Notes: generated from the sequence alone by a model not told the origin. Counted from the stretch's first letter, positions 1 to 17,295 are shown. The stretch: DNA of 64,000 nt from Dehalococcoidia bacterium (GCA_963663555.2 CAXXNJ010000005.1:176989-240988), one strand, 5' to 3'. Numbers and translations are program-made.

Positions 1-3000
1 GCGTCCGCGCCAAGAACGCCAACGGCGGCGCAAACTGGACCAACTCCCCAGCCGCCGGACCCTTCACCCCGCCACCCACGCTGACCCCCACCGAGGTGAC
101 CGACGATTCCGCCACCATCGAGCTCGACAACTGGAACGGCCAGTGGTACTACACCACCACCGGCGGCGGACAGGGCGCAGGCGGCGCGAGCATACAGTCC
201 GTCACCTGCAACGGGCCAGTCAACGGCTCGGAGGCGACTATCACCGGCCTGGACCCCGACACCAACTACACCATCACCGCCTACGGCAACGGCCAGTGCG
301 GCGGCGCCACCATCGCCTCCGCCACGGCCCAGACGCAGAGCAACCTGCCCGCCAACAGCGTCTCCGTCAGCAACATCGACGAGCCGTACTCCTCGACCTG
401 CTGGGTAGGCGACCGTGACGGGCGCTCCAAGTGCGCCGTCGCCTTCACCACCGGCGGCAGGCTTGGCGGCTACACCCTCGCCAGCGTCAGAGGTCACTTC
501 CACTGGAAACAAAGCAATCCTCCGGACATCGTGGTGGCCATCCACGCGCCGGACGCCACCAACCCGAACCACCCCGCGGCGACGGCCAAAGTCACGCTGA
601 GCGGTCCCGGCCAACCGGGCTTCGGCGCCAATAACACCTGGAACTGCTCCGGGACGGACTGTGCGCTCGACCCCAACACCACCTACTTCATCGTCATGAG
701 CACCGCAGCCGGGGGGAGCAGCATCCAGGGCCATCATCTGCGGACGACGAACTCGGGCAGCGAGGTCAACGCTCCCGCCGGCAGCGGCTGGTCCATCGCC
801 AACAGCGGTCTAACGAACAACAATGGACAACTCCGCTGGCAGTCGGACAGGGTCGGAATGGTGAGCATCGTCGCGGCCAACGCCAACGCATCGGTCCAGC
901 TGAGCGCCGGCGCCGAGACGACCGACGGGGCGACGCTCACGCTCACGTCCACAGGCGACTGGTGGTACAAGCAGACCTCGCCCAACGACAGCCTCTGCAC
1001 GGCGGCGGGCGGCTCATCCGTCAACATCACCGGCTTGCTGCCGGGCCGCGACTACACCTACGCCGCCTACGACAACCGGCAGTGCCTCGGTGCCGCCGTC
1101 GCCACGGCCACCTTCACCACGCAGTACGAACTGCGCGCCGACGGGGTGACGGAGAACTCGGCGACGCTGGTCATCGAAGGCTCCGGCCTGCTGACCAACT
1201 GGTGGTACAAGCGCACCGCCCCCAGCGGCGACGACACCTGCCATGCCGTGGGCTACGCGCAGAAGAGCGTCGCGCTCAGCCTGACCCCGAAGACGAGCTA
1301 CACCTACTCGGCGTACGTGGATTCCGGCTGCGCCGCCGCGGTCGGCTCCGTCTCTTTCAAGACCCCCGGCCTGGACGGCAGCGCAAACACGAACACGGAC
1401 ACCTTGACTATCAACATCGTCAACTGGACGAAGGCGGACGGGACGACTACGACGGCGTGGTGGTACCGGCAGACCGCTCCCACCGCCGGGACCTGCACCT
1501 CCGTCGCCGAGGGAACCTCGTCGGTGACGCTGACCGGCTTCACCTTCGACCACACCAACAGGAACCAGTACGTCTACGAGGCATACAGCAAGACGGGCTG
1601 CGACGCCGCCGACGCGATCGCCCGCAAGCACTTCTTCCCCGCATCCTCGCCCAGGGGAGGCGTCGAGAACGTAACCGCGACGACCGCGACCTTCCTTGCC
1701 TACAACGTGGGGAACAACAGCCAATGGGGATACAAATCGACGGAGACCGGCGCCCCCTGCACAGGCCCCTTCGACGGGCTAGGCGCCCTTGGTGTCACGA
1801 GCGCGCCCGTCACCGGCCTCACGCCCGGCACGACCTACACCTTCCAGGCATATGCGTCCGATCAGAACACCACCTGCTCCGCGAGATTCGACACCAACGT
1901 GACGTTCACCACCGCAAAGGCCAGCGTGAGCAACCTCGGCCAGCGGCAGGTGGGTTCCACCATGCCCGTGGGCTGGTCGCGCAACCACTGGATGTCGAGC
2001 GCCTTCACCACGGGTACGGGCGCGACCGGCTTCACCCTCGATCGCATCACGCTCCTGTTCGGCGACAGCGGCATCGGGATGCCGGCCCCCGAGTATGACC
2101 TGAACGTGCGTCTCTTCAGCGCAGGGAGCGACGGCAACCCGGACGCCGCGATTGCCAACGCCGCGCTCAGCGGCCCGGCGCGGCCGGCTGAGAACTCCCA
2201 AGGGATATACACCTGCTCCGGCGACGGCTGCGCCCTTGACCCCGGCGAGACTTACTACGTCGTGCTCAGCGTCCCCGTGCCGCAATGCCGCACCTTCGAG
2301 GGAGTGCAGGACTGCAGCGGCACCACGGGCCGGGCCTACTACTGGCAGCGGGCGGGCACGAATAATGAGACGGCGGCGCCCGCCGACAGCGGCTTCAGCA
2401 TCGCCAACGAAACCCGGCACACGACGGACGGCGGCTCGACGTGGACGCGCCTGGTGCGCGTGGTCATGTTCGGCGTGGAGTACGCCCATGACGCCCCGTC
2501 CCTCACCGCCAGCGACATCCGAGGGACGACGGCGACGCTGACCCTGGCCAACGAGGGCAGCGAGGGCGCCTGGTACGCGAAGCAGGTCTCCCCGTCCGAG
2601 GGGACGTGCTCGTCCGCCATCGCCAACGGCGCCACCCACGGCCTTACGAACCTCAATCAGAACACGTCCTACACCTACGCGGCCTACCGCGACTCCGCCT
2701 GCAAGCAGGTGGCCGCCAGCGGTACGTTCACGACGCTGCGGACGCTGACGGCGAGCAACGTAACCGACACCACGGCGACGCTTACCCTTGCCGGCAGCGG
2801 TACGGGCAGCTGGTACGCGAAGTACACCACGCCCAGCGGCGGGACCTGCTCGTCCGGCGCGGCCTACGGCGCCGCCCACGACCTGGATAGCCTCCAGCGG
2901 AGCACGGCGTACACCTACGAGGCGTACAGCGATTCGGCCTGCACGACGGTGATCGGCAGGACAACGTTCACCACCGAGGCGAACTGGATCGCCGTGAGCG

Positions 3001-3512: not shown

Positions 3513-3563
3513 CGGCGGGCCGCGCGGCGCGCCTACCCAGTTCCGGCTGAAAGAGAGGCTGAC

Positions 3564-6500
3564 ATGAAACTGCAAAGCGCATTTTCATCAACCCGTTGGG
3601 TCTGGCTGGCCGCCACCCTGCTGCTGGCCCTGCTGGCCGTCGCCGGCTTTTACCCATCCCCAACGTCAGCGCAGTCCGCCAGCCTGACCGCTACCGTCGA
3701 CACCGCCGACCAGACGGTTGACCTCGCCATCTCCAACCACACCGGCAACTGGTGGTTCAAGATCAACTGGTGGGGCGCCTGCACGGCGGTGACCGGCAAC
3801 AGCATCACCGGCATCGGCGGCTACCAGGTCGGAACGCAGCACTCCGTCTGGGCCTACTCCGACAGCAACTGCAGCAACCAGATCGCGGCGACCACGTTCA
3901 CCATCACGCCCCACAACGCCGGCCTCGCGGCGCACGTCCAGAGCGACCGCTCCGTCAACCTCACCATCTCCAACTGGTCCAACAGCTGGTGGTTCCGCAT
4001 CGGCTGGGGCACCTGCACCGCGGCGAGTGGAACCACCGTCACCGGCATCCGCGGCTACCAGACGGGAACCTACGCCGTCGGCGCATTCTCCAAGAGCGAC
4101 TGCAGCGGCTTCCTCTCAGATGCGAATTTCACCATTCCGCCGCCGACCGCCACCCTGGCGACGACGGTGAACCCCGGCCCCTTGGTCGACCTGACCCTGA
4201 CCGACGGCCCCGGCAACTGGTGGTTCCGCATCAACTGGTGGGGAACCTGCACGCCTGCGACCGGTACCACCTTCACCGGCATCGGCGGCTACCAGGCCGG
4301 AACCCACTCCGTCTGGGCATACTCCGACAGCGGCTGCAACACCCAGATCGCGTCCTCGTCATTCACCATTCCCGATGTGTCCCTCGCCATCGCGGTGGAC
4401 AGCAGCGACCGCTCGGTCGACCTCACGCTCAGCGGCGGACCCACCAACTGGTGGTTCAAGATCGGCTGGTGGGGAACCTGCACGGCCGCGACGGGAACGA
4501 CCGTCAGCAACATCCGGGGCTACCAGTCGGGATCGTACGTCGTCGCGGTCTACCCGGCCTCCGGCTGCGCCGCCGGCGACCACGTCACGGCTGAGTCGTT
4601 CACGATTCCCACCGCAACCCTGACGGCCACGGTGAACACCGACCGGTCGGTTGACCTCACGCTCACCAACGGGACGACCAACTGGTGGTTCCGCATCAAC
4701 TCCTGGGGCACCTGCACAGCGGCAGGCGGAACGACCGTCAGCAACATCCAGGGCTACCAGGACGGAACCCACCCCGTCTCCGCCTACTCGGACGGAGGAT
4801 GTAACTATCACGTCGCCTCATCCTCGTTCACCCTCACGACAGCCTCGCTCACCGCCAGCGGCGTCACCAGCACCGGCGCGACGCTGACCATTGCCGACCA
4901 CACCGGCCAGTGGTGGTACCAGGCCGACACCGGCCCCGACGCCACCTGCCAGGGGCCGATATCGAACACGACCGAGAGCCTCACGGGTCTGACGGCGAGC
5001 ACGACCTACATCTACAAGGCCTACAGCGCGACCAACTGCCCCAACGCCGACCTGCTCGCCACGGCGGACGCCTTCACCACCGTGACGCCCACGCTGACCG
5101 CGAGCAGCATCACCAGCAGCGGCGCGACGCTGACCATCGCCGACCACACCGGCCAGTGGTGGTACAAGGCCGACGTTGGGCCGGACAACACCTGCCAGGG
5201 ACCGGTCGCCGCGAGCACGTCCACCAAGGACCTCACCGGGCTGACGCCGGGCACGGCCTACACGTACTCCGCGTACAGCGACAACGGCTGCGCCAACCTG
5301 CTGGTCGCGGCGAGCGCCTTCACGACATCCGCCACGCTGACCGCGAGCAACATCGGGGCTACCACCGCCACCCTGACCATTGCCGGGCACACGACCCAGT
5401 GGTACTACCAGGCCGACGCCGCCCCGCACACCACCTGCCAGGGGCCGGTCGCCTCGGGCACGTCCACCAAGACGCTGACGGGCTTGACCCCCGGCACGAC
5501 CTACACGTACTCCGCGTACAGCGACTCCACCTGCACGAACGCAAACCTGCTGGCCACCGCCGCCAGCTTCACCGCCATCGGCCTCACCGCGAGCAACGTG
5601 ACGACCACCACGGCGACGCTGACGCTCGCCGGCCACACGGGGAACTGGTCGGTGCGGCAGACGTCGCCGTCCACCGGGTCGTGCACGAACAAGACGACCG
5701 CGACGGAGTCCCTGAGCAGCCTGACTGCCGGTTCCTGGTACACCTACAAGGCGTACTCCGGCTCCGGCTGCACGGCGGCGAACGAGATCGCAAGCGCGAC
5801 GTTCTCGACGGCGGTGACGGTGGGGAACCTGAGCCAGACAAGCTCCGGGAACACCTTCATCGGCCTGTACTTCAACACCGTCGCCACGGTCGCGCAGGCA
5901 TTCGTCGCGGGCACAACGGCTTCGGACGACTCCACGTTCACGAGCGCCGAGTTCACCTTGAGCGTCAAGAACGGCACGCCGGGCGACATCGTGGTGACGC
6001 TCCACGCAGCGGACACCTCCGACACCAACAACCCGTCCTCGACGGTGAAGGCGACGCTCACCGCACCCAACAACAACAATAACCCCAACGGCAACCAGAA
6101 CCTGACGTTCACGTGCGACGCCACCAACTCCGCGAACGACTGCGACCTCACGGCGGGGAAGACCTACTTCGTCCAACTGGCCGCTCCCAACGCCACCGGC
6201 AGCAACAACGACACCTACAACGTGTCGAACACGGCGTCGGACAGCGAGACGACGGCGCCGTCCGGCAGCGGCTGGTCGATCGCGGACACCGGCAGGGTCG
6301 GCCCCGGCCAATGGATCAACACGACGAACTCGGAGCCGATCAAGATCAAGGTGACCGCCCTGCCGAAGCCGTCCCTCTTCGCGAGCGCCATCGCGGACAC
6401 GACAGCCACGCTGACGCTGACCGGCGAGACGGGGAGTTGGTGGCTGAAGGAGACGTCGCCCAGCACGGGCACGTGCACGGCGGGCGAGGCGGACTACTCG

Positions 6501-9500
6501 CACGCGCTGAGCAGCCTGACCACCAGCACGTCGTACACGTACAAGGCGTACAGCGCGACGGGCTGCGCCAGCGCGGACGAGCTGCACAGCGTCACGTTCA
6601 CCACGCTCGCGCCCGCAACGCTCACGGCGAGCGCGGTCACGGACACCACGGCAACGCTGACCCTGGCCAACCGCACGGGCAGCTGGTGGCTGAAGGAGAC
6701 CGCGCCCACCACCGGAACCTGCACGCAGGGCGAGGCCGACTTCTCGCACGCGCTCACCGCCCTCACCGGCGGCGCGGTGCACACCTACAAGGCGTACAGC
6801 GCGAGCGGATGCAACAGCGCGGACGAGATGGCGTCCGAGACGTTCGTCACCCCCGTCAGCCACAGCAACCTCAACACGGGCGGCCTCGGCACTGCGGTGG
6901 TCGACAACTCCGGCGCGGAGGCCGGCGCGTTCATCACGGGCGGCAACCCGGGCGGCTACACGCTGGAGTCGGTGGACGTGCGCATCTCCTCCGTCACCAA
7001 CACGACCGGCAACGCGTCCGGCGACCTCACCGTCGCCCTCCACGCCAGCGACAGCAACGGCAAGCCGGGCACGTCGCAGGCGACGCTGAGCGGCGGCAAC
7101 CCCACCGGCGCGGGGACGTTCACCTTCACCTGCCCTGCCGCCTCCAACTGCTCCCTCTCCCCGGCGACGGAGTACCACGTGGTGCTCTCCGCGCCGAACA
7201 CGACCGGCAACGGCAGGTACGTGTGGACTACCGTGACCTCGACGACCGCAGCCCAGGAGCCGTCCAACAACGGCTGGCTCGTCGGCCCGTCCCACTATCA
7301 ATACTTGGGCGCCTGGCAGAACATAAGCGACTTCAAGAAGGTGAAGGCGACGGCGGCGGTCAACCCGAGCCTGACCGCCTCGTCCATCACGTCCACGGGC
7401 GCCACGCTCACGCTGTCGCACCACCCGGGCGCGTGGTGGTACAAGGGCAGCCAGGCCAACGCCTCCTGCACGCCCGTGGCGGCGGGCACAACGACCGCGA
7501 CTCTGAACAGCCTGACCACGGGCACGGCCCACACGTACAAGGCGTACTCCGCGACCGGCTGCGCCAGCGCGGACGAGATAGCGGCGGCTGCCGCCTTCAC
7601 GCCCGGCTCCGCGCCGACGTTCACGGCGGGAACGCCCACGGCGAGCAAGAACACGCTCACCATCGCCAACTGGAGCGGCGTGTGGTCGTACAAGCACGGC
7701 AACACCGGCGCCGTCTGCACACCCGTCGCCGCCGGGACGACGAGCGTCAACCTCGCCGAGCTGGCGGTGAACACCTCCTTCACCTACACGGCGTACAGCG
7801 ACCACGTCTGCTCGGCGGTCATCGCCGCCGCTTCGGCGTTCACCACCGGCAACCCGACCCTGACCGTCGCCTACTCCGGCCCGGTCGACAACCGCCGGGC
7901 GGTGCTCACCATCTCCGGCTGGGTCGCGGGCGACCACAGACAGCCGAACGAGGACGGCAGGTGGTACTACAAGTACACCGTCCCCACCGGCGGAACGTGC
8001 TCCTTCCCCAGGAACACGCAGACGGGGCTCGGCATAGACGTGACCGTCGGCACGTCCTACACCTTCAAGGCGTACGGCGCGAGCGGCTGCAGCAGCACGA
8101 ACGAGATAGCCAGCCTGACGCAGGTCGCGCAGGGCCCGGGCGTCGCCAACTCCGCGAAGGACATCACCCTGCACAGCGATAACGCCGACACGGACGGCGT
8201 CTGGACGGACGGTACGACGATCTGGGCGCTGGACTCCGTCGACGACAAGATCTACGCCTACACAGTCTCGACCAAGGCCAGGGACTCCTCGAAGGACTTC
8301 ACCTCCCTGAGCGGCCTGGGCACGAACATCCCCTACGGCATCTGGTCGGACGGGACGACGATGTGGGTGGCCGCCGGCACGAAGATCTACGCGTACAAGA
8401 TGTCCGACAAGAGCAGGGACACGTCCAAGGAGTTCGACACCCTGTTCGGCGCGCAGAACCACCAGCCCTTCGGTATCTGGTCGGACGGGACGACGATGTG
8501 GGTCGCGGACTACAGCGACAACAAGCTCTACGCGTACAAGATGTCCGACAAGTCGCGCGACTCCGGCAAGGACATCACCCTGAACAGCGCGAACGACAAC
8601 GCCAACGGCATCTGGTCGGACGGCGTGACCATGTGGGTCGTTGACCACACCGACAGCAAGGCCTACGCCTACACGCTCTCCAACGGCAACCGGGACTCCG
8701 ACAAGGACTTCAGCCTGACCGCGGGCGCGCGGGGCATGACGTCGGACGGCCACCACTTCTACGTCGCCAACCCGTCCACCGACAAACTCCACGCGCACTA
8801 CGCCTTCCCCGCGCTCACGGCGACGACCGTCTCGTTCGTCACGGCGACGCTGACGCTGACGGGCTACACGGACGGCAACTGGTGGATCAAGAAGACGTCC
8901 GGGACTCCGGGGTCGTGCACGGCGGGCGAGTCGGACTACTCGCACGCGCTCAGCAGCCTCACCCCGAGCACGTCCTACACCTACAAGGCGTACAGCGACG
9001 CGCAGTGCCAGAACGTGAACGAACTCGCCAGCGAGACGTTCACCACGGCCGTGCTCCCCGGGCCGGGCAGCGTGGGCGCGCAGGTGCAGGACATCAGCAT
9101 GACCACCACGGCCAACAACGAGCTCCAGGTCTGGTGGAACCGGCCCGCAAACGCGACGGGCTCCATCGGCTACACGGTGCAGTGCTACACGAACGTGTAC
9201 AAGGTCTGCCACACGGAGGCGGCGGGCACGGGCACGACGTTCAAGGTCACGCCCTCGATCACGGGCACGCCGACCAAGGTGCGCGTGCGCTCGACGCTGA
9301 GCGGCTCGAACAGCGCGTGGGTCGAGGTCAACGTGCCGTCGGGCACTGCCCCCGGCGCGCCGACGGCCGTGAACAGTGCTCTCGGACACGGCGGCTACAT
9401 AATGTCGTGGACCAAGCCGGCCAGCCCGACCGGGGCCGTCGGCTACCACACCCAGTGCAGGGACAGCAACACGAACTGGTCGAACTGCGGCAGCGCAGGC

Positions 9501-9623: not shown

Positions 9624-9660
9624 GGACGGCGGCCCCACGGCATAAAACAGGAGGCATGAC

Positions 9661-11904
9661 ATGGTCATTCGTCGATCGACCTGGCGGCTCGCGGTCCTGG
9701 CGCTGGCGCTCGCCGCGCTGGCGCTCCTGCCGTCCGCCGCACTGGCGCAGTCGCCGCCCGGCACCCAGAACACGCCCAGCCTGACGGCGACGGTGCACGG
9801 CGACAAGTCGGTTGACCTCGCCATCTCCAACCACACCGGCAACTGGTGGTTCCGTATCAACTCCTGGGGAACCTGCACGGCGGTGACCGGCAACAGCATC
9901 ACCGGCATCCGGGGTTACAACCTGGGGACGCACTCGGTCTGGGCCTATTCCGATAGCAGCTGCGGCTCCCAGATAGCAGCGACGACGTTCACCATTTCCG
10001 CCGCAAGCCTGACGGCGACGGTGAACAGCGACCGCTCGGTTGATCTCACCCTGTCCAACGGGCCGTCCCCCTGGTATTTCCGCATCGGCATCGGCGCCTG
10101 CACGACGGTTAACGGAACCACCCTCAGCGGCATCCGGGGCTACGCGCCGGGATACCACGAGGTCACCGCTTTCGCCACTGCCGGCTGCGCGGGCGCGGAC
10201 TTCCTCACAGATGCGTATTTCATCATTCCCGACCCGCCGCCCCCGCCCAGCCTGACGGCGACGGTGCACGGCGACAAGTCGGTTGACCTCGCCATCTCCA
10301 ACCATCAGGGCAACTGGTGGTTCAAGATCAACTCCTGGGGCACCTGCACGGCGGTGACCGGCAACAGCATCACCGGCATCCAGGGCTACAAACCGGGGAC
10401 GCACTCGGTCTGGGCCTATTCCGATAGCAACTGCGGCGCCCAGATAGCAGCGACGACGTTCACCATTACCGCCGCAAGCCTGACGGCGACGGTGAACAGC
10501 GACCGCTCGGTTGACCTCACCCTGTCCAACGGCCCGTCCCCCTGGTATTTCCGCATCGGCATCGGCGCCTGCACGTCGGTTACCGGAGCCACCGTCAGCG
10601 GCATCAGGGGCTACGCGCCGGGATACCACGAGGTCAGCGCTTTCGCCACTGCCGGCTGCACGGGCTCGGACTTCCTCACAGATGCGTACTTCATCATTCC
10701 CGACCCGCCGCCCACGGCAACCCTGGCAACCACGGTCAACGACGACCGCTCGGTTAACCTCAACTTGTCCAACGGGCCGAGCAACAACAACTGGTGGTTC
10801 AAGATCAACTGGTGGGGCTCCTGCACGGCGGTTACCGGAACCACCTTCAACAACATCCGGGGCTACCAGCCGGGCGCCCACTCCGTCGATGCCTATTCCG
10901 ACAGCGGCTGCCATACCAAGATTGCGTCGTCGTCCTTCACCATTCCCACCGCAACCCTGACGGCTACGGTGAACGCCGACCGCTCGGTCGCCCTCACGCT
11001 CACCGGCGGGCCGAGCAACTGGTGGTTCCGCATCAACTGGTGGGGTACCTGCACTGCTGCGTCCGGAAACACCGTCAGCAACATCCAGGGCTACCAGCCG
11101 GGCGCCCACGCCGTCGCAGCCTACTCAGACGGCGGCTGCAACTACCACGTGGCGGCGACGACCTTCGACCTCTATTCGCTCTCCGCGTCCAGCATCACCT
11201 ACACGACGGCCACACTGACGTTGGCGGGGCACTTTGGGGACTGGTGGCTGAAGGAGACTGCGCCGTCCACCGGAACGTGCACGGCGGGCGAGTCCGACTA
11301 CTCGCACGCCCTCAGCAGCCTGACGGGCGGCACGACGTACACCTACAAGGCGTACAGCGACTCCGCCTGCGCGACGACGGCGCTCCACACCGTCAGCTTC
11401 ACGACGCCCGTGGGGGTCGGCAACCTGTCGGAAACCTCGACGCAGGGTTCGCCCAGCACTTCCGGCGGCGCGTGGATTGCCAACGAGTTCACCACCGGCA
11501 GCAACACCAACGGCTACACCGTGTCCCAAGTAACCGTCCCAATCAGCCCGGGCAGCGGGAGCGGCAACGTTACCCTGCGCATCTTCTCCAAGGTCAGCGG
11601 CACCGCCAAACCGGGCGCTAGCCTGGCTACGCTGACCAACACGGGGGACGCGAATGGCAACTACACCTTCAGTTGCTCGGGTACCGGCTGCGACCTCTCC
11701 GCCGGCACGAGCTACTTCCTGGTACTGAGCGCCGCCAGCGGCTACAACTATAGATGGGCGGCTACCGCCTCGAACAACGAAACCGGCTCCGCCGGGTGGG
11801 CAATCGGCAACACCTACACCGCCTCCTTCGATAGCGGCTCCTCCTGGACCCCCGATGCCAACACCCGCGTCGCGAAGTTCTCAATAACGGCCACGCCAAA
11901 GTAG
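9661..11904 (+). CDS. Giant secreted repeat protein C (747 aa): signal peptide, 6 NWWF-type modules, 1 WW/Cys-pair module, C-terminal VSNL..GWAIG domain
   Basis: AGGAGG 7-8 nt upstream of the ATG. MVIRRSTWRLAVLALALAALALLPSAALAQSPP looks like a signal peptide. Only 37 nt downstream of protein B. Confidence 0.9.
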   Translation: MVIRRSTWRLAVLALALAALALLPSAALAQSPPGTQNTPSLTATVHGDKSVDLAISNHTGNWWFRINSWGTCTAVTGNSITGIRGYNLGTHSVWAYSDSSCGSQIAATTFTISAASLTATVNSDRSVDLTLSNGPSPWYFRIGIGACTTVNGTTLSGIRGYAPGYHEVTAFATAGCAGADFLTDAYFIIPDPPPPPSLTATVHGDKSVDLAISNHQGNWWFKINSWGTCTAVTGNSITGIQGYKPGTHSVWAYSDSNCGAQIAATTFTITAASLTATVNSDRSVDLTLSNGPSPWYFRIGIGACTSVTGATVSGIRGYAPGYHEVSAFATAGCTGSDFLTDAYFIIPDPPPTATLATTVNDDRSVNLNLSNGPSNNNWWFKINWWGSCTAVTGTTFNNIRGYQPGAHSVDAYSDSGCHTKIASSSFTIPTATLTATVNADRSVALTLTGGPSNWWFRINWWGTCTAASGNTVSNIQGYQPGAHAVAAYSDGGCNYHVAATTFDLYSLSASSITYTTATLTLAGHFGDWWLKETAPSTGTCTAGESDYSHALSSLTGGTTYTYKAYSDSACATTALHTVSFTTPVGVGNLSETSTQGSPSTSGGAWIANEFTTGSNTNGYTVSQVTVPISPGSGSGNVTLRIFSKVSGTAKPGASLATLTNTGDANGNYTFSCSGTGCDLSAGTSYFLVLSAASGYNYRWAATASNNETGSAGWAIGNTYTASFDSGSSWTPDANTRVAKFSITATPK
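9778..10719 (+). repeat. Tandem duplication of a 471-bp (157-aa, two-module) unit inside protein C
   Basis: agcctgacggcgacggtgcacggcgacaagtcggttgacctcgccatctccaacca... starts at 9778 and again at 10249. By eye the copies are >90% identical over the full 471 bp. Confidence 0.9.
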
Positions 11905-12210
11905 GAGGAAATAAGTGAAGAGTGTGCGGGCGTTCTCACACCGAAGGCCGATGCTGGCGGGGCACGGCGGGGGGGGCACGCGCGACCACCACAACGCGCG
12001 ACGCCACAAACACGCGCGCCCCACCTCGTCTTTCCCGTGCAAACGGGAATCGTCGCCCACCACGACGCGCGCCATCAACCCACATCCCCTTTCCGTCATT
12101 CCCGTGCAAGCGGGAATCCCCTCCTACCTCTTCCCCCGTCTGCGGGGGAAGCCCCTCCTGCCTCTTCCCCCTTCTTAAGGGGGAAGATTGAGATGGGGGT
12201 CTTCACGCGT
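11905..12210. repeat. Cluster of short palindromic (REP-like) elements: G-run module, 2x REP2 hairpin, 2x REP3 hairpin
   Basis: ggcggggcacggcggggggggcacgcgcgaccacc (11957-11990). ttcccgtgcaaacgggaa (12031-12048) and attcccgtgcaagcgggaat (12097-12116). cccctcct.cctcttccccc[gtctgc/ttcttaa]gggggaag (12117-12150, 12151-12208). The same elements recur at 17.3-17.8, 24.3, 25.3, 46.7 and 49.9 kb. Confidence 0.85.
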
Positions 12211-12261
12211 CGCCCACCGCCACGCGCGACGCCGCGAACCGCAACTACCACAAGCCACTCG

Positions 12262-12335
12262 AGAGAAAAACGTTACTTTAAAGTAATCCAAAATCAAAAT
12301 AAAAATCATCGCTACGTTATTAAAATATAGTGTAC
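12262..12335 (+). promoter_or_regulatory. AT-rich putative promoter/operator region upstream of protein D, with a perfect 14-bp palindrome TTACTTTAAAGTAA (12273-12286)
   Basis: The only strongly AT-rich stretch in a GC-rich locus (gagagaaaaacgttactttaaagtaatccaaaatcaaaataaaaatcatcgctacgttattaaaatatagt). TATAGT at 12326-12331 and TAAAAT at 12321-12326 are -10-like. No convincing -35 found. Confidence 0.4.
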
Positions 12336-12393
12336 CATCGTACCCCCAGTATGCGTATGGGACGGACAACAGGCTCACTCGTCCGTCCACGCC

Positions 12394-15300
12394 GTGCAGG
12401 AGCGTTTGCCGGAAGGGGACGATGCGTTGGATATTCGAGAACTACCTTCACGCTATCGACTGAGCCTGCCTTCACGCTATCGACTGAGCCTGCCTTCACG
12501 GTACCGGCTGGCCTGGGCGCTTGCGGCCCTGTTGGCGCTCGTTGCCGCTCTTGCCCTCTCTCCTGCCGACTCGCTGGCGCAGCAGGCGCCCGGCACGCCG
12601 TCTTCGGTGTCGGTAACTCGCGCCGACGGCACGCTCACCGCCACTTGGCCCGCCGTCTCCGGCGCGACTAAGTACCACGTCACCTACAGTTCGGATAACG
12701 GCAAGAGCTGGCGGCTCGGCGCGCTGAACCACACGAGTACCAGCATCAGCATCGCCGTCTCCAACGACAAGACCTACATCGTCGGCGTTCGCGGCGGCAA
12801 CTCCTACGGCTGGGGCGGATGGCGCAACTCCCCGCCCTCAGGGCCCTTCGCCCCTCCGACGCCGCCGACACCCCCGCCGGCAACGCCGTCCTCGGTCAGC
12901 GTGACGCGGAGCGACGGCGAACTGACCGCCTCATGGCCCGCCGTTTCCGGCGCGCTCCACTACCACGTCACCTACTCCTCGGACGGCGGCGCAAGCTGGA
13001 GCCTCGCAGCGCTCAAGCACCTTGGTACCAGCATCGACGTACGCATCTCGAACGACGAGACATATATAGTGGGAGTCCGCGCTCTCGGCGTCGGCGGCTG
13101 GGGCGGATGGCGCAACTCAGCGCCCGCAGGGCCGTACACGCCCATGCCCAAGCTGCCAGGGCCAGGACCCAATCCACCGCCGGCCCCCACGGGACTGACT
13201 GCGACGGCGGGCGACCAGAGCGTCACCCTTACCTGGGACAGCGCCCCAGACGTCTCGATCACCCCCATCACCGGCTACCAGTACATCTCCCGCGCCGCAC
13301 CGCCGGCGCCCGGATGGGGCGCGTGGACCGCAGTGCCCGGCAGCGACCGGACAACGACGTCATACACCATCACCGGGCTCACCAACGGCACGGAGTACCG
13401 CTTCAAGCTGCGCGCCGTCAACGCAGGCGGCGGCGGAGCGCCCGCGCCCACAGCCTCTCCCTGGTACGTCGCGGCTACGCCTGCCGCGGGCACGGTCAAC
13501 ATCGACACGCCCGGACAGCCCACAGGACTAACCGCAACAGCCAACGACGACGGCAGCGCGACCATTACCTGGACCGACCCCAACGACGCCTCCATCACCG
13601 GCTACCAGTACCAGACCCGCGAGGACGACGGCGTCTGGGGCGGGAACACCGAGATCGAGGGCAGCGGCGCAAGCACCACCTCCCACACGATAACGGGACT
13701 TGTCGGCGGCGCGACGAACCACATCAACCTGCAAGCGCTCAACGCGAGCGGCGCGAGTTTAGGCCGCCAGGTGTCGGTGCTTGTCCCCGCCTCACTGCCC
13801 GGCCCGGCCTCCGTAACCATCACCGCCCGCGGCATGGGAACCCTCTCCGCCACATGGACGGCGGTCGATGGCGCGTTCACCTACTACATCCAGACCTCCA
13901 ACAGCAACGACGACTATGCGACGTTCACGATCGAGACGCTCACGACCGGCACGAGCGTCACCCTCAACAACCGCGACGACTCGCTGAACTACACCGTCCT
14001 GGTACATGCGTTCACCGAGAACGGCTACACGAAGCGGACCGAGTCCTACCCGGCGGGCATGTCGAACTCCCCGGCCATAGCGCCCGAGTCGGTCAGCCTG
14101 TCGCGCAGCGGGACGACGCTCACCGCGACCTGGCCCGCCGTCGGCGGCGCGGCCAGCTACAACGTCGAGCTCAGCAGCGACGGCGGCGACACGTGGTCCA
14201 AAGAGGCCACCAACCACACGACCACCACGTGGACGAAGAGCAGCATCGGCGCGAGCACGAGCTACAAGGTCCGCGTCCAGTCAAAGAACACCGCCGGCAC
14301 GAGCGCGTGGACGGAATCGGAAGTGAACACCCCCGCGCCACCGGCCCCGGCTTCCGTAACCGTAACCTCTCGCAGTCATACAGGAACGAACGCAACGCTG
14401 GAAATATCCTGGGACGCCGCAGCGCGCGCGACGGGCTACAACATCCGCAGCAGCGGAGACAACGGCGCAACATGGACGACCGACGTGTCCAGCCATCCGT
14501 TGACGACGCTGAGCCTGACGCTGACCGACAACACGAAGGACTACTTCATCGGCGTACAGGCGGTCAATAGCAACGGCGCCAGCGGCTGGACGAACTCATC
14601 CATCAGCCGCGCAACCCCGTTGCCGCCCGCGCCCGCGAACCTGACGCCCACCCGCGCCAAAGGCTCCATCACCCTCACCTGGGACGCCGCCAGCGGCGCC
14701 GCATCCTACGACGTCGCCTGCAGCGTGTCAGGCGGTCACTACTGGGACGACTGCAAGAAGGGCGTCACCGACGCCCAAAGGACGGCAGGCGTCACCCTCA
14801 CGCAGTTCTACAACCACGGCGCCGGCCAGACGCAGAACATCGACGACGGGCGGAACTACACCTTCGCCGTGCGCGGCAGGAACACCAGCGGCGCGGGCGA
14901 GTGGACACGAGCTACCGCGTGGACCGCCAGGCCCGACCGGATAGCCAGCGTAACCGCGACGCGCACCGTCAGCGGCATCACCCTCACCATGACCGCCCCC
15001 GCCAATAACGGCGGCTACACCACCACACAGATAAAGGTGGACTGCCGCACCAGCTCCGACGGCGGGACAACCTGGTCCGGCTGGTTCTCTTGCACCGACG
15101 CGCAGACGACCACCCCCACGCCCGGCGCAGCCTTCACCGCCACCATCGACAGCACGGACAACTACGACACGACTCTCACCTACCAGGCGCGCGCCCGCGC
15201 CCGGAACGCCCTCGGCGTCACGTGGGACTGGCGCGAGTCCGCGGTCATTCCGCCAATCACCCTGACCGCGGGCAGCGTCACCGCCACGGGCGCAACCCTC

Positions 15301-17295
15301 ACCATCGCAGGCCACACCGGCAGTTGGTACGTCAAGGAGATCAGCCCCGCCACCAACGGAAGCTGCTCCTCCGCCATAAGCGGCGCGACCAAGAGCCTCA
15401 GCAGCCTCACCGCCGGAACGTGGTACAGCTACAGGGCGTACAGCGACTCCACTTGCACCGACGCGAACGAGATCGGCGCGGTGGCGTTCTCCACCGCCGT
15501 CACCGTCAGCAACCTGGGCGGGTCGAATTCGTCTAACACGTTGGCTATTCAGTCCAACCAGGCCAAGGCGCAAGAGTTCACGACGGGCAGCGCGGCCGGC
15601 GGCTACACCGTCTCAAGCGTCAAGGTGCATACATTCCTTGTGTTCAATGCGTCCCTTTTCAAGGTGACCATCCGCGAGCGGAATTCCAACGGACATCCCG
15701 GCACATCACTCGCAACACTTCCCGGCACCCCGGCAAACTATCAGCAGACAACATACACCTGCTCCGGCTCAGGCTGCGCGCTGGATCCTAACACTCAGTA
15801 CTTCATATTCGTCGAGAGTACCGGCGGAAACGCCGGCATCCTGTACGCCACCTCCGACGACGCGGAGACGTTGCAGCCCACCGGCAACGGCTGGAGCATC
15901 GCGAACGACGTGCGCGCCCAGGATCGGGGGTGGGGGCACTGGTCGAATGGCGTCTCCCTCAAGATATCGGTGACCGCAGTGCCGCAGCCCGGCATCGCCG
16001 CAAGCAGCGTTACGGCAACCACGGCGACGCTGACCCTCAACGGACACGTCGGCGACTGGTGGTTCAAACGCACCACCCCCTCCGGCGGAACCTGCACGGC
16101 AGGCGAGGCGGACTACTCCCATGCCCTCAGCAGCCTGACGCCCGGCACGGACTACACCTACAAGGCGTACAGCGATTCCGGCTGCACAACGAGTAAGGAG
16201 ATAGGGTCAGGGACCTTCACCACGCCCGCATCCCTCACCGCCAGCGGCGTCACCGCCGCGGGCGCGACCCTCACCATCGCCGGGCACACCGGAGACTGGT
16301 ACCTGAAGCAGACCGCGCCCTCGACCGGTACGTGCTCGGCGAACGCGATAACCGGGGCCACCCACACCCTCAGCACTCTGACCCACAGCACCACCTACAC
16401 CTACAAGGCGTACAGCGACTCCGCCTGCACCACCGCCAACCTGCTGGCAACGGAGACCTTCACCACGCCCGCGTCCCTCACCGCCAGCAGCGTCACGATG
16501 AACAGCGCGACGCTCACGCTGGCCGGACGCACGGGCAACTGGTGGCTGAAGCAGACCGCGCCCACCACCGGAACCTGCGCGGCGGGCGAGGCGGACTTCT
16601 CCCACGCCCTCAGCAGCCTCAGCACAGGCACCACGTACACCTATAAGGCGTACAGCGACTCCACCTGCTCTACGGAGATAGCGTCGGGCACGTTCACCAC
16701 GGCCCTCAGCCCGCCCACGGGCCTATCCGGCACGCGCACCTACAGCGGAACGGCCAACAGCGACAGCGTGTCCCTCTCCTGGACGGCCCCGGCGTCGAGC
16801 ACGGGTCGCACGGGCTACGAGGCGGGGTGCAGCGCCGACGCCGGCTCCACCTGGACAAGCTGCGGCGGGACAATAGCGTCCTCCGCCACCAGCCACACCG
16901 TCAGCAGCCTGGACAAAGACAACGCCTACGTCATCCGCCTGCGCGCCACGGGCAGCGGCGGGGCGACAAGCGCGTGGGCGCAGTCGTCCTCGATGGCCGC
17001 CCTCTCAGCCCCCGGCAAGCCCACCAACCTCTCCGTCGACACGAGCGTCTGGCAAGTAAGCTGGACCGCGCCCAGCGACACGGGCAACGGCGGCGGCGGG
17101 ATAACCAAGTACGAGCATCACTGCAAGCGGGGTGCCACCGGCACCCCCACCCCCGCGGACGAGACCACCAACACCTACGCGAACGTCGGCACCAACACCA
17201 CCTGCACGCAATCCTTCGGCCAGGGCACCTACTTCAGGGTCAGGGCCTTCAACCTCATCTGGGGCGCCTGGAGCGACTGGTACCAAATCCAATAA
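12394..17295 (+). CDS. Giant secreted repeat protein D (1633 aa): signal peptide, about a dozen canonical Fn3 domains, 4 WW/Cys-pair modules, 1 VSNL..GWSIA domain
   Basis: GTG-initiated open frame (TTG at 12427 is an alternative start). Hydrophobic LAWALAALLALVAALALSPADSLAQQAP. Fn3 signatures (P.SVSVTR.DG.LTA.WPAVSGA..Y.V.YSSD.G.SW). No in-frame ATG before the signal peptide. Confidence 0.88.
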   Translation: MQERLPEGDDALDIRELPSRYRLSLPSRYRLSLPSRYRLAWALAALLALVAALALSPADSLAQQAPGTPSSVSVTRADGTLTATWPAVSGATKYHVTYSSDNGKSWRLGALNHTSTSISIAVSNDKTYIVGVRGGNSYGWGGWRNSPPSGPFAPPTPPTPPPATPSSVSVTRSDGELTASWPAVSGALHYHVTYSSDGGASWSLAALKHLGTSIDVRISNDETYIVGVRALGVGGWGGWRNSAPAGPYTPMPKLPGPGPNPPPAPTGLTATAGDQSVTLTWDSAPDVSITPITGYQYISRAAPPAPGWGAWTAVPGSDRTTTSYTITGLTNGTEYRFKLRAVNAGGGGAPAPTASPWYVAATPAAGTVNIDTPGQPTGLTATANDDGSATITWTDPNDASITGYQYQTREDDGVWGGNTEIEGSGASTTSHTITGLVGGATNHINLQALNASGASLGRQVSVLVPASLPGPASVTITARGMGTLSATWTAVDGAFTYYIQTSNSNDDYATFTIETLTTGTSVTLNNRDDSLNYTVLVHAFTENGYTKRTESYPAGMSNSPAIAPESVSLSRSGTTLTATWPAVGGAASYNVELSSDGGDTWSKEATNHTTTTWTKSSIGASTSYKVRVQSKNTAGTSAWTESEVNTPAPPAPASVTVTSRSHTGTNATLEISWDAAARATGYNIRSSGDNGATWTTDVSSHPLTTLSLTLTDNTKDYFIGVQAVNSNGASGWTNSSISRATPLPPAPANLTPTRAKGSITLTWDAASGAASYDVACSVSGGHYWDDCKKGVTDAQRTAGVTLTQFYNHGAGQTQNIDDGRNYTFAVRGRNTSGAGEWTRATAWTARPDRIASVTATRTVSGITLTMTAPANNGGYTTTQIKVDCRTSSDGGTTWSGWFSCTDAQTTTPTPGAAFTATIDSTDNYDTTLTYQARARARNALGVTWDWRESAVIPPITLTAGSVTATGATLTIAGHTGSWYVKEISPATNGSCSSAISGATKSLSSLTAGTWYSYRAYSDSTCTDANEIGAVAFSTAVTVSNLGGSNSSNTLAIQSNQAKAQEFTTGSAAGGYTVSSVKVHTFLVFNASLFKVTIRERNSNGHPGTSLATLPGTPANYQQTTYTCSGSGCALDPNTQYFIFVESTGGNAGILYATSDDAETLQPTGNGWSIANDVRAQDRGWGHWSNGVSLKISVTAVPQPGIAASSVTATTATLTLNGHVGDWWFKRTTPSGGTCTAGEADYSHALSSLTPGTDYTYKAYSDSGCTTSKEIGSGTFTTPASLTASGVTAAGATLTIAGHTGDWYLKQTAPSTGTCSANAITGATHTLSTLTHSTTYTYKAYSDSACTTANLLATETFTTPASLTASSVTMNSATLTLAGRTGNWWLKQTAPTTGTCAAGEADFSHALSSLSTGTTYTYKAYSDSTCSTEIASGTFTTALSPPTGLSGTRTYSGTANSDSVSLSWTAPASSTGRTGYEAGCSADAGSTWTSCGGTIASSATSHTVSSLDKDNAYVIRLRATGSGGATSAWAQSSSMAALSAPGKPTNLSVDTSVWQVSWTAPSDTGNGGGGITKYEHHCKRGATGTPTPADETTNTYANVGTNTTCTQSFGQGTYFRVRAFNLIWGAWSDWYQIQ
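12442..12513 (+). repeat. 24-bp x3 in-frame tandem repeat encoding LPSRYRLS/LPSRYRLS/LPSRYRLA just before the signal-peptide core of protein D
   Basis: cta/ctg cct tca cgc tat cga ctg agc appears twice. The third copy is ctg cct tca cgg tac cgg ctg gcc, which encodes the same SRYRL peptide through three synonymous changes. Confidence 0.9.

What the first reader, a model, noticed from the sequence alone, without database searches (positions are those of the whole stretch)
1..17295. 17-kb array of four co-oriented giant secreted repeat proteins assembled from a small set of unassigned modules
Seen: ORFs <1..3512, 3564..9623, 9661..11904 and 12394..17295 all lie on the + strand. The first three are separated by only 51 and 37 nt and have purine-rich RBS. 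Proteins B, C and D begin with Ala/Leu-rich signal peptides ending ..TSAQSA, ..AALAQSP and ..DSLAQQA. None ends in a TM helix, LPXTG-like or other sorting tail that I can see. The bodies are mosaics of five unit types:
- ~80-aa WW[YL]K/Cys-pair Fn3-like units, about two dozen in total
- ~78-aa NWWF[KR]IN.WG.C units
- six ~180-aa VSNL..GWSIA domains
- one 5-blade IWSDGTTMWV repeat
- canonical Fn3

Inference: this is an extracellular adhesin, matrix or surface-layer-type system whose members diversify by module shuffling. I cannot place the first three unit types in a named family from memory.
Basis: partly seen in the sequence, partly recalled or inferred. Interest (0 to 1): 0.8.

Follow-up and report, generated by a model that had tools for sequence, protein, structure and literature searches.

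The report
Secreted Fn3-repeat binding proteins, Dehalococcoidia
Four neighbouring genes of an uncultured Chloroflexota (Dehalococcoidia-like) bacterium encode very large, exported, enzyme-free proteins made of repeated beta-sandwich and propeller modules, most likely adhesin-type binding proteins; this is a real but fairly ordinary example of bacterial repeat surface proteins, built partly from domain sub-families that have no Pfam model.

Summary
Four co-oriented ORFs fill 1-17295: A is cut by the window edge, B is 2019 aa, C 747 aa and D 1633 aa. GC3 is 0.86-0.95. B, C and D have Sec-type signal peptides. None has a C-terminal anchor.

The five "unit types" reduce to four.
- The WW[YL]K and NWWF units are one family: 34 copies of a divergent Fn3 with invariant W, C and C.
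- The VSNL..GWSIA domain is the named NCBIfam "choice-of-anchor R" domain (six copies). AlphaFold models it as a jelly-roll that resembles phage tail-fibre and baseplate domains.
- The IWSDGTTMWV repeat is a five-bladed NHL-like or glutaminyl-cyclase-like propeller with no Pfam, NCBIfam or PDB sequence match.
- D carries 11 canonical Fn3 units.

The Cys-pair Fn3 profile matches only 1,920 of 1.84 billion representative proteins. Some of these are giants of up to 5,891 aa. Close relatives lie in Dehalococcoidia/Chloroflexota MAGs.

Module shuffling is supported. 18 of 34 units have their nearest neighbour in another protein, and an orthologue of B differs in module number.

The most likely role is exported multivalent adhesin or "eukaryote-like" binding proteins. 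The ligand, the habitat (sponge is suspected) and how the proteins are retained on the cell are not established. Interest is modest.

The parts
3..3512 (+). Gene A (partial, 5' end outside the window), 1169 aa seen. Architecture: [Fn3 end]-c-R-c-c-c-c-R-c-c-c-Fn3-like tail (c = Cys-pair Fn3 unit, R = choice-of-anchor R).
   Evidence: The frame is open from base 3. Module map. GC3 0.91.
3564..9623 (+). Gene B, 2019 aa. Architecture: signal peptide, 9c-R-2c-R-3c-propeller-c-2 Fn3-like tail units.
   Evidence: RBS AGAGAGG. GC3 0.95.
9661..11904 (+). Gene C, 747 aa. Architecture: signal peptide, 7c-R. The protein ends with the R domain.
   Evidence: RBS AGGAGG. An identical protein, P0002, is in public data, and orthologues are 80-86% identical.
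12394..17295 (+). Gene D, 1633 aa from GTG 12394 (alternative start TTG 12427). Architecture: signal peptide, 9 canonical Fn3-c-R-3c-2 canonical Fn3.
   Evidence: (Pfam fn3 173 bits).
3564..3671 (+). Signal peptide of B: n-region with K2/R11, h-region WVWLAATLLLALLAVAGF, cleavage motif TSA|QSA.
   Evidence: Read directly from the sequence. Hydrophobicity maximum 2.57. The same N-terminus is conserved in homologues. SignalP was not available.
9661..9747 (+). Signal peptide of C: MVIRRSTWR, h-region LAVLALALAALALL, cleavage motif ALA|QSP.
12394..12579 (+). Long N-region plus signal peptide of D. It includes a 24-nt tandem repeat x3 (12445-12515) that encodes LPSRYRLS x3. h-region AWALAALLALVAALAL, cleavage motif SLA|QQA.
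3681..5816 (+). Nine tandem Cys-pair Fn3 units of B: five 'NWWF' sub-type followed by four 'WWYK' sub-type.
9778..11412 (+). Seven tandem Cys-pair Fn3 units of C: six NWWF sub-type and one WWLK sub-type. Units 1-2 and 3-4 are a recent two-unit duplication (89-91% aa identity, 92% nt identity).
78..350 (+). First Cys-pair Fn3 unit of A. The other units of A are at 897-1919 (four) and 2499-3221 (three).
6372..6857 (+). Two Cys-pair Fn3 units of B that lie between its R domains. Further units of B are at 7368-8138 (three) and 8811-9053 (one).
15259..15501 (+). Cys-pair Fn3 unit of D that precedes its R domain. Three more units are at 15988-16707.
354..896 (+). Choice-of-anchor R domain, copy A1.
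   Evidence: NCBIfam NF041539. Alignment.
1914..2498 (+). Choice-of-anchor R domain, copy A2, with an extra Cys-pair insertion.
5808..6371 (+). Choice-of-anchor R domain, copy B1.
6843..7367 (+). Choice-of-anchor R domain, copy B2.
11404..11901 (+). Choice-of-anchor R domain, copy C1. This is the copy that was modelled: pLDDT 93, a jelly-roll beta-sandwich.
   Evidence: (99.9 bits, cut-off 30).
15493..15993 (+). Choice-of-anchor R domain, copy D1.
8124..8819 (+). Five-bladed beta-propeller of B. Blades are about 45 aa with the motif GIWSDGTTMWV..D.K.YAY...RD..KDF; the fifth blade is degenerate.
   Evidence: AlphaFold pLDDT 95, pTM 0.91, 15 strands in 5 x 3 visible groups. Foldseek results. 236 homologues.
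12595..15228 (+). Nine canonical Fn3 units of D. Two more are at 16729-17268.
   Evidence: Pfam PF00041 at 173 bits. HMM map.
9069..9620 (+). Two divergent Fn3-like tail units at the C-terminus of B. One similar unit closes A at about 3225-3497.
   Evidence: tail HMM. Pfam fn3 at 20.9 bits, E = 4e-4, below cut-off.
11905..12393 (.). The 489-nt spacer between C and D. It holds two copies of the palindrome TTCCCGTGCAARCGGGAA, a 34-nt repeat, a further hairpin at 12152-12198, and then a 70-nt AT-rich stretch (about 12262-12335). This is probably a transcript end plus the promoter of D, so A-B-C and D would be separate transcription units.
   Evidence: The consensus promoter/terminator scan found nothing, so this reading is inference.

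Best explanation
The locus encodes four paralogous, Sec-exported, non-enzymatic, multivalent binding proteins (adhesin-like or 'eukaryote-like repeat' proteins). They belong to an uncultured Chloroflexota bacterium whose closest relatives are Dehalococcoidia MAGs.

Proposed mechanism:
1. Each protein is exported through Sec and cleaved by signal peptidase I at an AxA-type site. The motifs are shown; the cleavage is inferred.
2. Long strings of about 80-aa Fn3-type beta-sandwiches form an extended stalk. There are 34 units of a divergent sub-family with an invariant Trp and two invariant Cys that presumably form a stabilising disulfide outside the cell. D also has 11 canonical Fn3 units.
3. Recognition modules are spaced along the stalk and at its end. 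There are six choice-of-anchor R jelly-roll domains, whose fold is that of the distal domains of phage tail fibres and baseplates and of CBM6 and collagen-binding modules. B also carries one highly symmetric five-bladed propeller. Together these would give multivalent binding to a polymeric ligand such as a glycan or a matrix protein. The folds are shown; the binding and the ligand are inferred.
4. The family diversifies by duplication, loss and exchange of whole modules or blocks of modules between paralogues. This is shown.

A-B-C are probably co-transcribed, and D probably has its own promoter (inferred). The proteins have no covalent or membrane anchor. They are therefore either released or held on the cell non-covalently.
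For: Real genes:
- GC3 is 0.86-0.95.
- An identical protein and orthologues are in public data.
- AlphaFold models of two modules reach pLDDT 93-95.

Export:
- B, C and D have an n-region, an h-region and an AxA site.
- The same N-termini recur in homologues, and 114 of 249 family members have an SP-like N-terminus.

No enzyme: Pfam and NCBIfam return only fn3 and choice_anch_R above cut-off.

Cys-pair units are Fn3:
- The profile's best 60 PDB matches are all Fn3 domains, the best being fibronectin 6xay at E = 2.7e-5.
- Pfam fn3 scores 17-25 bits.
- W23, C35 and C67 are invariant in 34 of 34 units.

R domain:
- Six hits to NF041539 at 68-100 bits against a cut-off of 30.
- Jelly-roll model.
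- Structural neighbours in PDB: phage phi812 baseplate protein (E = 1.5e-6), PBCV-1 capsid protein, ColH collagen-binding domain and CBM6.
- Neighbours in BFVD: A0A510E7Y7 (TM 0.83, 32% identity), plus phage tail-fibre, minor-tail and DUF4815 proteins.

Propeller:
- Best fold matches are five-bladed glutaminyl cyclases (TM 0.71-0.74) and NHL/Pizza propellers.
- Homologues are fused to cadherin, Fn3, CARDB and PPC modules.

No anchor. Only 2 of 249 relatives have a C-terminal TM-like tail.

Shuffling:
- The homologues show eight different combinations of the four module types.
- 18 of 34 units have their nearest neighbour in another protein.
- The B orthologue in L002 keeps the same tail but has 7c-R-c-R-c-R-c in place of 9c-R-2c-R-3c.

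Literature: Fn3-domain genes are enriched in sponge-associated MAGs, are especially abundant in Chloroflexota and Actinobacteriota, and are laterally transferred (PMC8163846).
Against: - There is no direct evidence of expression, localisation or any ligand.
- SignalP could not be run.
- The disulfide in the Cys-pair unit was not checked structurally. By Fn3 topology, the two Cys (start of C' and the F-G loop) are not obviously adjacent.
- The R domain is called 'choice-of-anchor' because it usually comes with a C-terminal sorting signal, which is absent here. How the proteins would stay on the cell is therefore unexplained.
- Neighbouring genes are ordinary metabolism. No secretion, sortase or glycosylation partner supports a surface system.
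- The habitat of the source is not documented in anything I could retrieve.
Confidence: 0.6

Rival explanations
1. Cell-envelope coat or S-layer components. The proteins would assemble into the outer proteinaceous wall of a Dehalococcoidia cell, a lineage in which some members lack peptidoglycan and carry an S-layer-like wall. They would be structural rather than adhesive.
For: - The proteins are exported, anchor-less, acidic (pI 5.3-6.1), Thr/Ser/Ala/Gly-rich and low in charged residues. That composition is typical of S-layer proteins (my own knowledge).
- The taxonomic placement is near Dehalococcoidia.
Against: - No SLH or other S-layer anchoring or lattice domain was found.
- There are four different paralogues, and their module number varies between close relatives. 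One conserved, highly expressed lattice protein would be expected instead.
- The flanks are not syntenic between genomes.
- The lack of peptidoglycan is known for Dehalococcoides and is not shown for this lineage.
Confidence: 0.12
2. Substrate-capture scaffolds for nutrient acquisition. The R jelly-rolls and the propeller would act as carbohydrate-binding modules that tether polysaccharide or particulate organic matter to the cell for degradation by separately encoded enzymes.
For: - The structural neighbours of the R domain include CBM6 modules and a collagen-binding domain.
- In bacteria, Fn3 strings commonly act as linkers in glycoside hydrolases (established knowledge; also PMC8163846).
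- NCBIfam gave a weak sub-threshold similarity of D's Fn3 region to exoglucanase CbhB.
Against: - No glycoside hydrolase, lyase, dockerin or cohesin is present in the four proteins or in the 64-kb window.
- The CBM6 matches are weak (TM 0.32-0.39, E about 1e-2), much weaker than the viral tail-fibre-like matches.
Confidence: 0.15
3. Phage-related function. The R domains would have been acquired from, or exchanged with, viral receptor-binding proteins. The proteins would then act as decoys or as part of a prophage or tailocin.
For: The best structural matches of the R domain are viral: phi812 baseplate, PBCV-1, BFVD A0A510E7Y7 at 32% identity, and many tail-fibre or minor-tail proteins.
Against: - The proteins have N-terminal Sec signal peptides, which virion proteins lack.
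- No phage structural, integrase or terminase genes are present in the window.
- Base composition is uniform with the rest of the window.
- More than 70 cellular homologues carry R domains in the same Fn3 context.
Confidence: 0.03
4. Artefact: the long frames are chimeras of collapsed repeats, or chance ORFs in GC-rich DNA.
For: GC-rich DNA does produce long spurious ORFs. One example is the 1696-aa antisense ORF at 4818-9908.
Against: - The sense frames have GC3 of 0.86-0.95, against 0.50 for the antisense ORF.
- The repeats are only 60-80% identical at the DNA level.
- The same architectures recur on independent Mb-scale contigs.
- Two modules fold with pLDDT 93-95.
Confidence: 0.01

Closest known systems
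Choice-of-anchor R domain-containing proteins (NCBIfam NF041539)
   Same: All six VSNL..GWSIA domains match the model well above its cut-off, at 68-100 bits against 30. In C the match is full length, 1-155 of 155 profile positions.
   Different: The 'choice-of-anchor' families are named for occurring with alternative C-terminal sorting signals (my own knowledge of the NCBIfam naming). Here, and in most of the relatives I retrieved, the protein simply ends after an R or Fn3 domain with no anchor. No function is attached to the family. The fold assignment made here (a jelly-roll close to viral tail-fibre and baseplate domains) is new information as far as my searches show.
Fn3-domain 'attachment' or eukaryote-like proteins enriched in sponge-associated Chloroflexota and Actinobacteriota (Robbins et al. 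2021, PMC8163846)
   Same: These are Fn3-rich exported proteins in Chloroflexota with mosaic, apparently exchangeable modules. The propeller module is shared with Gemmatimonadota, Acidobacteria, Ekhidna and Salinispira MAGs. Ekhidna and a Salinispira-related spirochete are reported as sponge associates (PMC7313196 and PMC12478362).
   Different: I could not verify that this window or its relatives come from a sponge. Most units here fall below Pfam's fn3 threshold, so surveys based on Pfam counts would largely miss them.
Giant repetitive bacterial adhesins, such as the RTX adhesins LapA and MpIBP, SiiE, and Bap/MSCRAMM-type proteins
   Same: The general logic is the same: a long string of small beta-sandwich 'extender' domains presenting a few ligand-binding modules, with module number varying between strains.
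   Different: This locus uses Sec signal peptides, not T1SS/RTX C-terminal signals. It has no LPXTG, no membrane or outer-membrane retention module, and no Ca-binding RTX or BIg repeats. The extender is a Cys-pair Fn3.
NHL-repeat propellers and five-bladed bacterial and plant glutaminyl cyclases (for example PDB 3nol and 2iwa)
   Same: The fold is shared. TM is 0.71-0.74 to five-bladed glutaminyl cyclases and 0.6-0.66 to six-bladed NHL/Pizza propellers.
   Different: Identity is only 10-15%, and there is no Pfam NHL or glutaminyl-cyclase sequence hit. The blades are nearly identical to one another. That suggests repeated per-blade sites, as in propeller lectins, rather than a single catalytic site (inference).
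Distal jelly-roll domains of phage tail fibres and baseplate proteins (phi812 baseplate 9euj_G; BFVD A0A510E7Y7)
   Same: This is the best structural match of the R domain: TM up to 0.83, rmsd 2.3 A and 32% identity.
   Different: The proteins here are cellular, carry signal peptides and embed the domain in Fn3 arrays. There is no phage context.

Membership tests
Choice-of-anchor R domain proteins (NCBIfam NF041539) | The sequence matches the family HMM above the curated cut-off of 30 bits. | tested here: met
   A scores 91.4 bits (2 stretches), B 71.3 (2), C 99.9 (1, full length) and D 68.7 (1).
Choice-of-anchor R domain proteins (NCBIfam NF041539) | The domain is accompanied by one of several alternative C-terminal sorting or anchor signals (PEP-CTERM, LPXTG, T9SS CTD and so on). 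This is the reason for the family name, from my own knowledge. | tested here: not met
   None of A-D has a C-terminal hydrophobic segment, and I saw no LPXTG or PEP motif in their tails read directly. NCBIfam gave no sorting-domain hits. This feature belongs to the naming rationale, not to the HMM definition.
Fibronectin type III (Pfam PF00041): canonical units of D | Pfam gathering threshold of 25 bits. | tested here: met
   173.1 bits over 7 stretches. My own HMM finds 11 units.
Fibronectin type III (Pfam PF00041): the 34 Cys-pair units | Pfam gathering threshold of 25 bits. | tested here: inconclusive
   Whole-protein scores are A 25.3, B 16.0 and C no hit. A single WWYK unit scores 17.0 bits and a single NWWF unit has no hit. 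A profile of the 34 units finds only Fn3 domains in PDB, best E = 2.7e-5. hhalign against the window's own canonical Fn3 profile is weak (E = 0.034).
NHL repeat and SGL beta-propellers (Pfam Beta_propeller clan) | A sequence match to an NHL or SGL model. | tested here: not met
   There is no NHL or SGL hit even at E <= 10. A few homologues carry precomputed PF08450 labels.
NHL repeat and SGL beta-propellers (Pfam Beta_propeller clan) | A beta-propeller fold made of four-stranded blades. | tested here: met
   The AlphaFold model has pLDDT 95. Foldseek gives probability 1.0 to NHL, Pizza6 and glutaminyl cyclase, with TM 0.6-0.74.
Bacterial and plant glutaminyl cyclase (five-bladed propeller enzyme) | Conserved catalytic and metal-binding residues, and sequence homology. 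| not tested
   Only fold similarity at 10-12% identity was seen. The residues conserved in the family alignment are the per-blade repeat motif. The active-site residues were not mapped.
S-layer proteins | An SLH or other cell-wall-anchoring domain, or a known S-layer lattice domain. | tested here: not met
   No such Pfam or NCBIfam hit was found.
LPXTG/sortase-anchored adhesins (MSCRAMM type) | A C-terminal LPXTG motif, a hydrophobic segment and a basic tail, with a sortase nearby. | tested here: not met
   No C-terminal hydrophobic segment and no LPXTG motif in the tails read directly. No sortase is among the window ORFs scanned.
RTX/T1SS giant adhesins | C-terminal RTX nonapeptide repeats and a T1SS signal, with no N-terminal Sec signal. 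| tested here: not met
   N-terminal Sec-type signal peptides are present, and there is no RTX hit.

The most novel reading that the evidence does not exclude
These anchor-less giants, and the roughly 1,900-member family they belong to, could be a lineage-specific host-interaction coat of symbiotic (probably sponge-associated) Dehalococcoidia. Under this reading the R domains are homologues of viral receptor-binding domains that have been exchanged with phages. The five-bladed propeller is a multivalent lectin that has spread by lateral transfer among unrelated sponge-symbiont phyla. Together they would mediate recognition of host matrix or glycans, or evasion of phagocytosis. That would make this a new, structurally defined class of symbiosis factor that Pfam-based 'eukaryote-like protein' censuses miss.
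Probability: 0.12. Interest if true: 0.6.

Novelty: new variant of a known kind. Interest (0 to 1): 0.3.

Why it matters
If the reading is right, the locus is a clean example of how uncultured Chloroflexota build large extracellular binding proteins from a small tool-kit. It also defines three domain families that lack a Pfam model and are therefore missed by Pfam-based censuses:
- A Cys-pair Fn3 sub-family, found in about 1,900 of 1.84 billion representative proteins.
- The choice-of-anchor R jelly-roll, which NCBIfam does name but which has no assigned function. Its relatives are viral tail-fibre-like domains.
- A symmetric five-bladed propeller shared across several phyla.

Pfam-based counts of 'Fn3/eukaryote-like' proteins in host-associated microbiomes would undercount these proteins. 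The practical value is better annotation, and candidate adhesins or lectins for binding studies. It does not open a long-standing question.

Tried and rejected
- Exact look-ups of protein C and of the identical P0002 found no contig on record. The source sample of the window could therefore not be identified.
- Cluster look-ups gave no names or accessions.
- A literature search for the accessions OY760183, ERZ21862620, CAXXWY01 and OY762251 found nothing. The habitat stays unverified.
- A search for 'choice-of-anchor' papers found nothing on the R family.
- The last homology search, with the R domain alone, returned only 4 short proteins and added little.
- My first propeller HMM drifted into the N-terminal strand of the Fn3 units and was discarded.
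- hhalign of the Cys-pair profile against the window's own canonical Fn3 profile was nearly negative. The Fn3 assignment therefore rests on the PDB profile hits and the weak Pfam hits.
- A PDB sequence search with the propeller gave only noise in the form of antibody chains. The same search with the R profile also gave nothing.
- The consensus promoter/terminator scan of the C-D spacer found nothing.
- I considered a prophage or mobile island and rejected it: composition is uniform and there are no phage or mobility genes.
- I considered assembly collapse and rejected it.
- The Pfam NCH3 and T7 helicase-primase hits on the propeller are below cut-off and are treated as spurious.
Full report
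**1. Observation**

The four ORFs are present as described.
- A is open from base 3 to the stop at 3512. It begins with the last strand of an Fn3 unit (VRAKNANGGANWTNSPAAGPF, compare VRGGNSYGWGGWRNSPPSGPF in D), so the gene continues upstream of the window.
- B is 3564-9623 (2019 aa), C is 9661-11904 (747 aa) and D is 12394-17295 (1633 aa).
- The gaps of 51 and 37 nt and the ribosome-binding sites are real: AGAGAGG for B and AGGAGG for C.
- C and D are separated by 489 nt. This spacer holds two copies of a palindrome, a further hairpin and a 70-nt AT-rich stretch. D therefore probably has its own promoter. That is inference, because the consensus scan found nothing.

The sense frames have GC3 of 0.86-0.95, equal to or above housekeeping genes of the window (0.82-0.85). 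The 1696-aa antisense ORF has GC3 of 0.50 and is a shadow ORF. DNA identity among repeat copies is 60-80%, with one 300-nt pair at 92%. A protein identical to C and 80-86%-identical orthologues lie on independent contigs of up to 3.5 Mb. Assembly collapse and chance ORFs are excluded.

**2. Modules**

*Cys-pair Fn3 units.* An HMM seeded from one WWYK unit and an HMM seeded from one NWWF unit converge on the same 34 units: A 8, B 15, C 7, D 4, with E-values of 1e-15 to 1e-31. The units align cleanly, and W23, C35 and C67 are invariant. They are therefore one family with sub-types, 11 NWWF and 23 WW[YL]K.
- Pfam fn3 scores them at 17-25 bits, around or below the cut-off of 25.
- A profile of the 34 units hits only Fn3 domains in PDB. 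The best is fibronectin 6xay at E = 2.7e-5, and all 60 matches listed are Fn3, monobody or tencon.
- A profile-profile comparison with D's canonical Fn3 units is weak (E = 0.034).
- I conclude that the unit is a divergent Fn3. Its fold was not modelled here.

*R domain.* The roughly 180-aa VSNL..GWSIA domain is NCBIfam NF041539, 'choice-of-anchor R'. There are six copies scoring 68-100 bits against a cut-off of 30.
- With an alignment of 28 copies (invariant F29, C91, C96, L98 and Y104), AlphaFold gives an all-beta model with pLDDT 93 and pTM 0.90.
- Foldseek against PDB finds only loose neighbours: a phi812 baseplate protein (E = 1.5e-6, TM 0.60), a PBCV-1 capsid protein, the ColH collagen-binding domain and CBM6 modules.
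- Against predicted viral structures there is a close match, A0A510E7Y7 (TM 0.83, rmsd 2.3 A, 32% identity). Many tail-fibre, minor-tail and DUF4815 proteins also match.
- The profile finds nothing by sequence in PDB.

*Propeller.* The IWSDGTTMWV repeat (B residues 1521-1752) has no significant Pfam, NCBIfam or PDB sequence match.
- It has 236 homologues. Most are 280-400-aa proteins, some fused to cadherin, Fn3, CARDB or PPC modules. The named ones come from Gemmatimonadota, Acidobacteria, Ekhidna and Salinispira MAGs.
- AlphaFold gives a five-bladed propeller with pLDDT 95 and pTM 0.91.
- The best fold matches are five-bladed glutaminyl cyclases (3nol, TM 0.74, 10% identity) and six-bladed NHL/Pizza propellers.

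*Canonical Fn3.* D has 11 canonical Fn3 units. A and B end in divergent Fn3-like tail units.

*Architectures* (c = Cys-pair Fn3, R = choice-of-anchor R, P = propeller, f = canonical Fn3):
- A: c-R-4c-R-3c-tail
- B: 9c-R-2c-R-3c-P-c-2 tails
- C: 7c-R
- D: 9f-c-R-3c-2f

None of these modules occurs elsewhere in the window.

**3. Export and anchoring**

B, C and D have basic n-regions, 14-18-residue Ala/Leu h-regions and AxA-type sites (TSA|Q, ALA|Q, SLA|Q). D's n-region contains a 24-nt tandem repeat x3 that encodes LPSRYRLS x3. TTG 12427, which lies behind GGAAGGGGA, may be its real start.

There is no C-terminal hydrophobic segment, and I saw no LPXTG or PEP motif in the tails read directly. 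Among 249 relatives only 2 have a TM-like tail. Cys numbers are even (24, 38, 16, 18) and lie within modules. The composition is Thr 14-17%, Ala 12%, Ser 9.5-12% and Gly 9-11%. Only 9-12% of residues are charged, and pI is 5.3-6.1. All of this fits extracellular proteins. SignalP was not available.

**4. Distribution and evolution**

An exhaustive profile search with the 34 units finds only 1,920 of 1.84 billion representative proteins at E <= 1e-3. Of these, 1,179 reach 1e-10 and 622 reach 1e-30. They include proteins of up to 5,891 aa with 34-37 units. The profile therefore does not pick up generic Fn3. The family is rare and is made largely of giants.

The close relatives of C are in MAGs titled Dehalococcoidia bacterium and Chloroflexota bacterium.

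The homologues combine c, R, f and P in many orders: 38 proteins have R, c and f; 31 have R and c; 28 have c only; 16 have c and f; 8 of the proteins that contain a propeller also carry other modules.

Within the window, 18 of 34 units have their nearest neighbour in a different protein. B units 1, 3 and 5 pair with C units 3, 5 and 6 at 71-83% identity. C has a recent two-unit duplication.

In the related MAG CAXXWY01, the B orthologue keeps the same signal peptide, propeller and tail. It has 7c-R-c-R-c-R-c where B has 9c-R-2c-R-3c, and the C orthologue has 9c-R instead of 7c-R. The flanking genes differ between genomes. Diversification at the level of whole modules is therefore shown.

**5. 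Context**

The other 47 kb of the window encode ordinary metabolism: CoA-transferases, an HpcH aldolase, haem biosynthesis, threonine and serine metabolism, and a GT4. There are also a small HSDR_N-like protein and a DNA methylase. No secretion system, sortase or phage genes are present.

**6. Interpretation**

The best-supported reading is a set of exported, enzyme-free, multivalent binding proteins. Fn3 strings serve as stalks, and the R jelly-rolls and a symmetric propeller serve as recognition heads.

This matches the known category of Fn3-rich 'attachment' or eukaryote-like proteins. That category is reported as enriched, laterally transferred and especially abundant in Chloroflexota among sponge-associated MAGs (PMC8163846; see also PMC10947273).

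A sponge origin is plausible. The propeller is shared with lineages that include known sponge associates, namely Ekhidna with many novel cadherin proteins (PMC7313196) and Salinispira-like spirochetes (PMC12478362). My recollection of the naming style of these MAG records points the same way. It is not verified.

The ligand, the means of retention on the cell and expression all remain unknown.

The rivals are less well supported. They are an S-layer coat, a substrate-capture scaffold, a phage-related function and an artefact. They are weighed in the rival-explanations section.

**7. Novelty**

The kind of system is known. What is new is at the domain level:
- A distinct Cys-pair Fn3 sub-family and a five-bladed propeller family, neither with a Pfam or NCBIfam model.
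- A fold assignment for the choice-of-anchor R domain, with a close viral relative.

I rate this a new variant of a known kind, of modest interest.

Noticed in passing
window 12032-12049, 12099-12116, 24444-24461, 46711-46728, 49873-49890: An 18-nt palindrome, TTCCCGTGCAARCGGGAA, occurs five times (with up to 2 mismatches) where none is expected by chance. The positions appear to be intergenic. It looks like a REP-like dispersed hairpin element of this genome.
   Followed up: partly
window 12445-12515: A 24-nt tandem repeat x3 (91% matches) lies inside the 5' end of gene D. It encodes LPSRYRLS three times in the n-region of the signal peptide, which makes the pre-sequence unusually long, basic and possibly length-variable. 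The true start may be TTG 12427.
   Followed up: partly
window 12262-12335: A stretch of about 70 nt is strongly AT-rich (aaaaacgttactttaaagtaatccaaaatcaaaataaaaatcatcgctacgttattaaaatatagtg) in a 66% GC genome, just upstream of D. It is probably a promoter or regulatory region, but the sigma-70 consensus scan found nothing.
   Followed up: partly
window 4818-9908 (- strand): A 1696-aa ORF lies antisense to gene B. GC1 is 0.94 and GC3 is 0.50, so it is a shadow ORF of the GC3-rich sense frame and not a gene.
   Followed up: yes
window 46811-49717 (- strand): A 968-aa ORF has no Pfam or NCBIfam hit. It sits next to a GT4 glycosyltransferase and is flanked by two copies of the palindromic element.
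   Followed up: partly
window 17968-18915 (+) and 37595-38473 (-): A stand-alone 315-aa protein carries only an HSDR_N-like domain (the N-terminal domain of the type I restriction R subunit), directly downstream of D. A separate N6/N4 DNA methylase lies 20 kb away. These may be remnants of restriction-modification systems.
   Followed up: no
L001 13661-22217 (OY760183, Chloroflexota MAG): In this relative the C-like gene lies next to an ORF of more than 3506 aa that contains none of the four modules (Cys-pair Fn3, R, propeller, canonical Fn3). It is a different giant protein at the equivalent position.
   Followed up: no
window 11404-11901 (R-domain model m11d76e49d13d): In BFVD the R domain matches two unnamed viral proteins closely: A0A510E7Y7 (TM 0.83, 32% identity) and A0A510E8N7 (TM 0.77, 21% identity). 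This suggests true homology between choice-of-anchor R domains and a viral structural protein. The virus could not be identified with the tools at hand.
   Followed up: partly
window 8124-8819 and homologues P0121-P0240: Many homologues of the propeller carry a precomputed Pfam label PF22729 (NACHT C-terminal helical domain 3). On the window copy the hit is 22 bits, below the cut-off of 27. It falls on an all-beta blade, so the label looks spurious.
   Followed up: partly
window 3564-3680 versus homologues P0001, P0007, P0008, P0010: Several orthologues of C in other genomes carry the signal peptide of the window's protein B (MKLQSAFS..TRWVWLAA..). Others carry C's own (MVIRR..). The N-terminal leader therefore also seems to be swapped between paralogues.
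   Followed up: no
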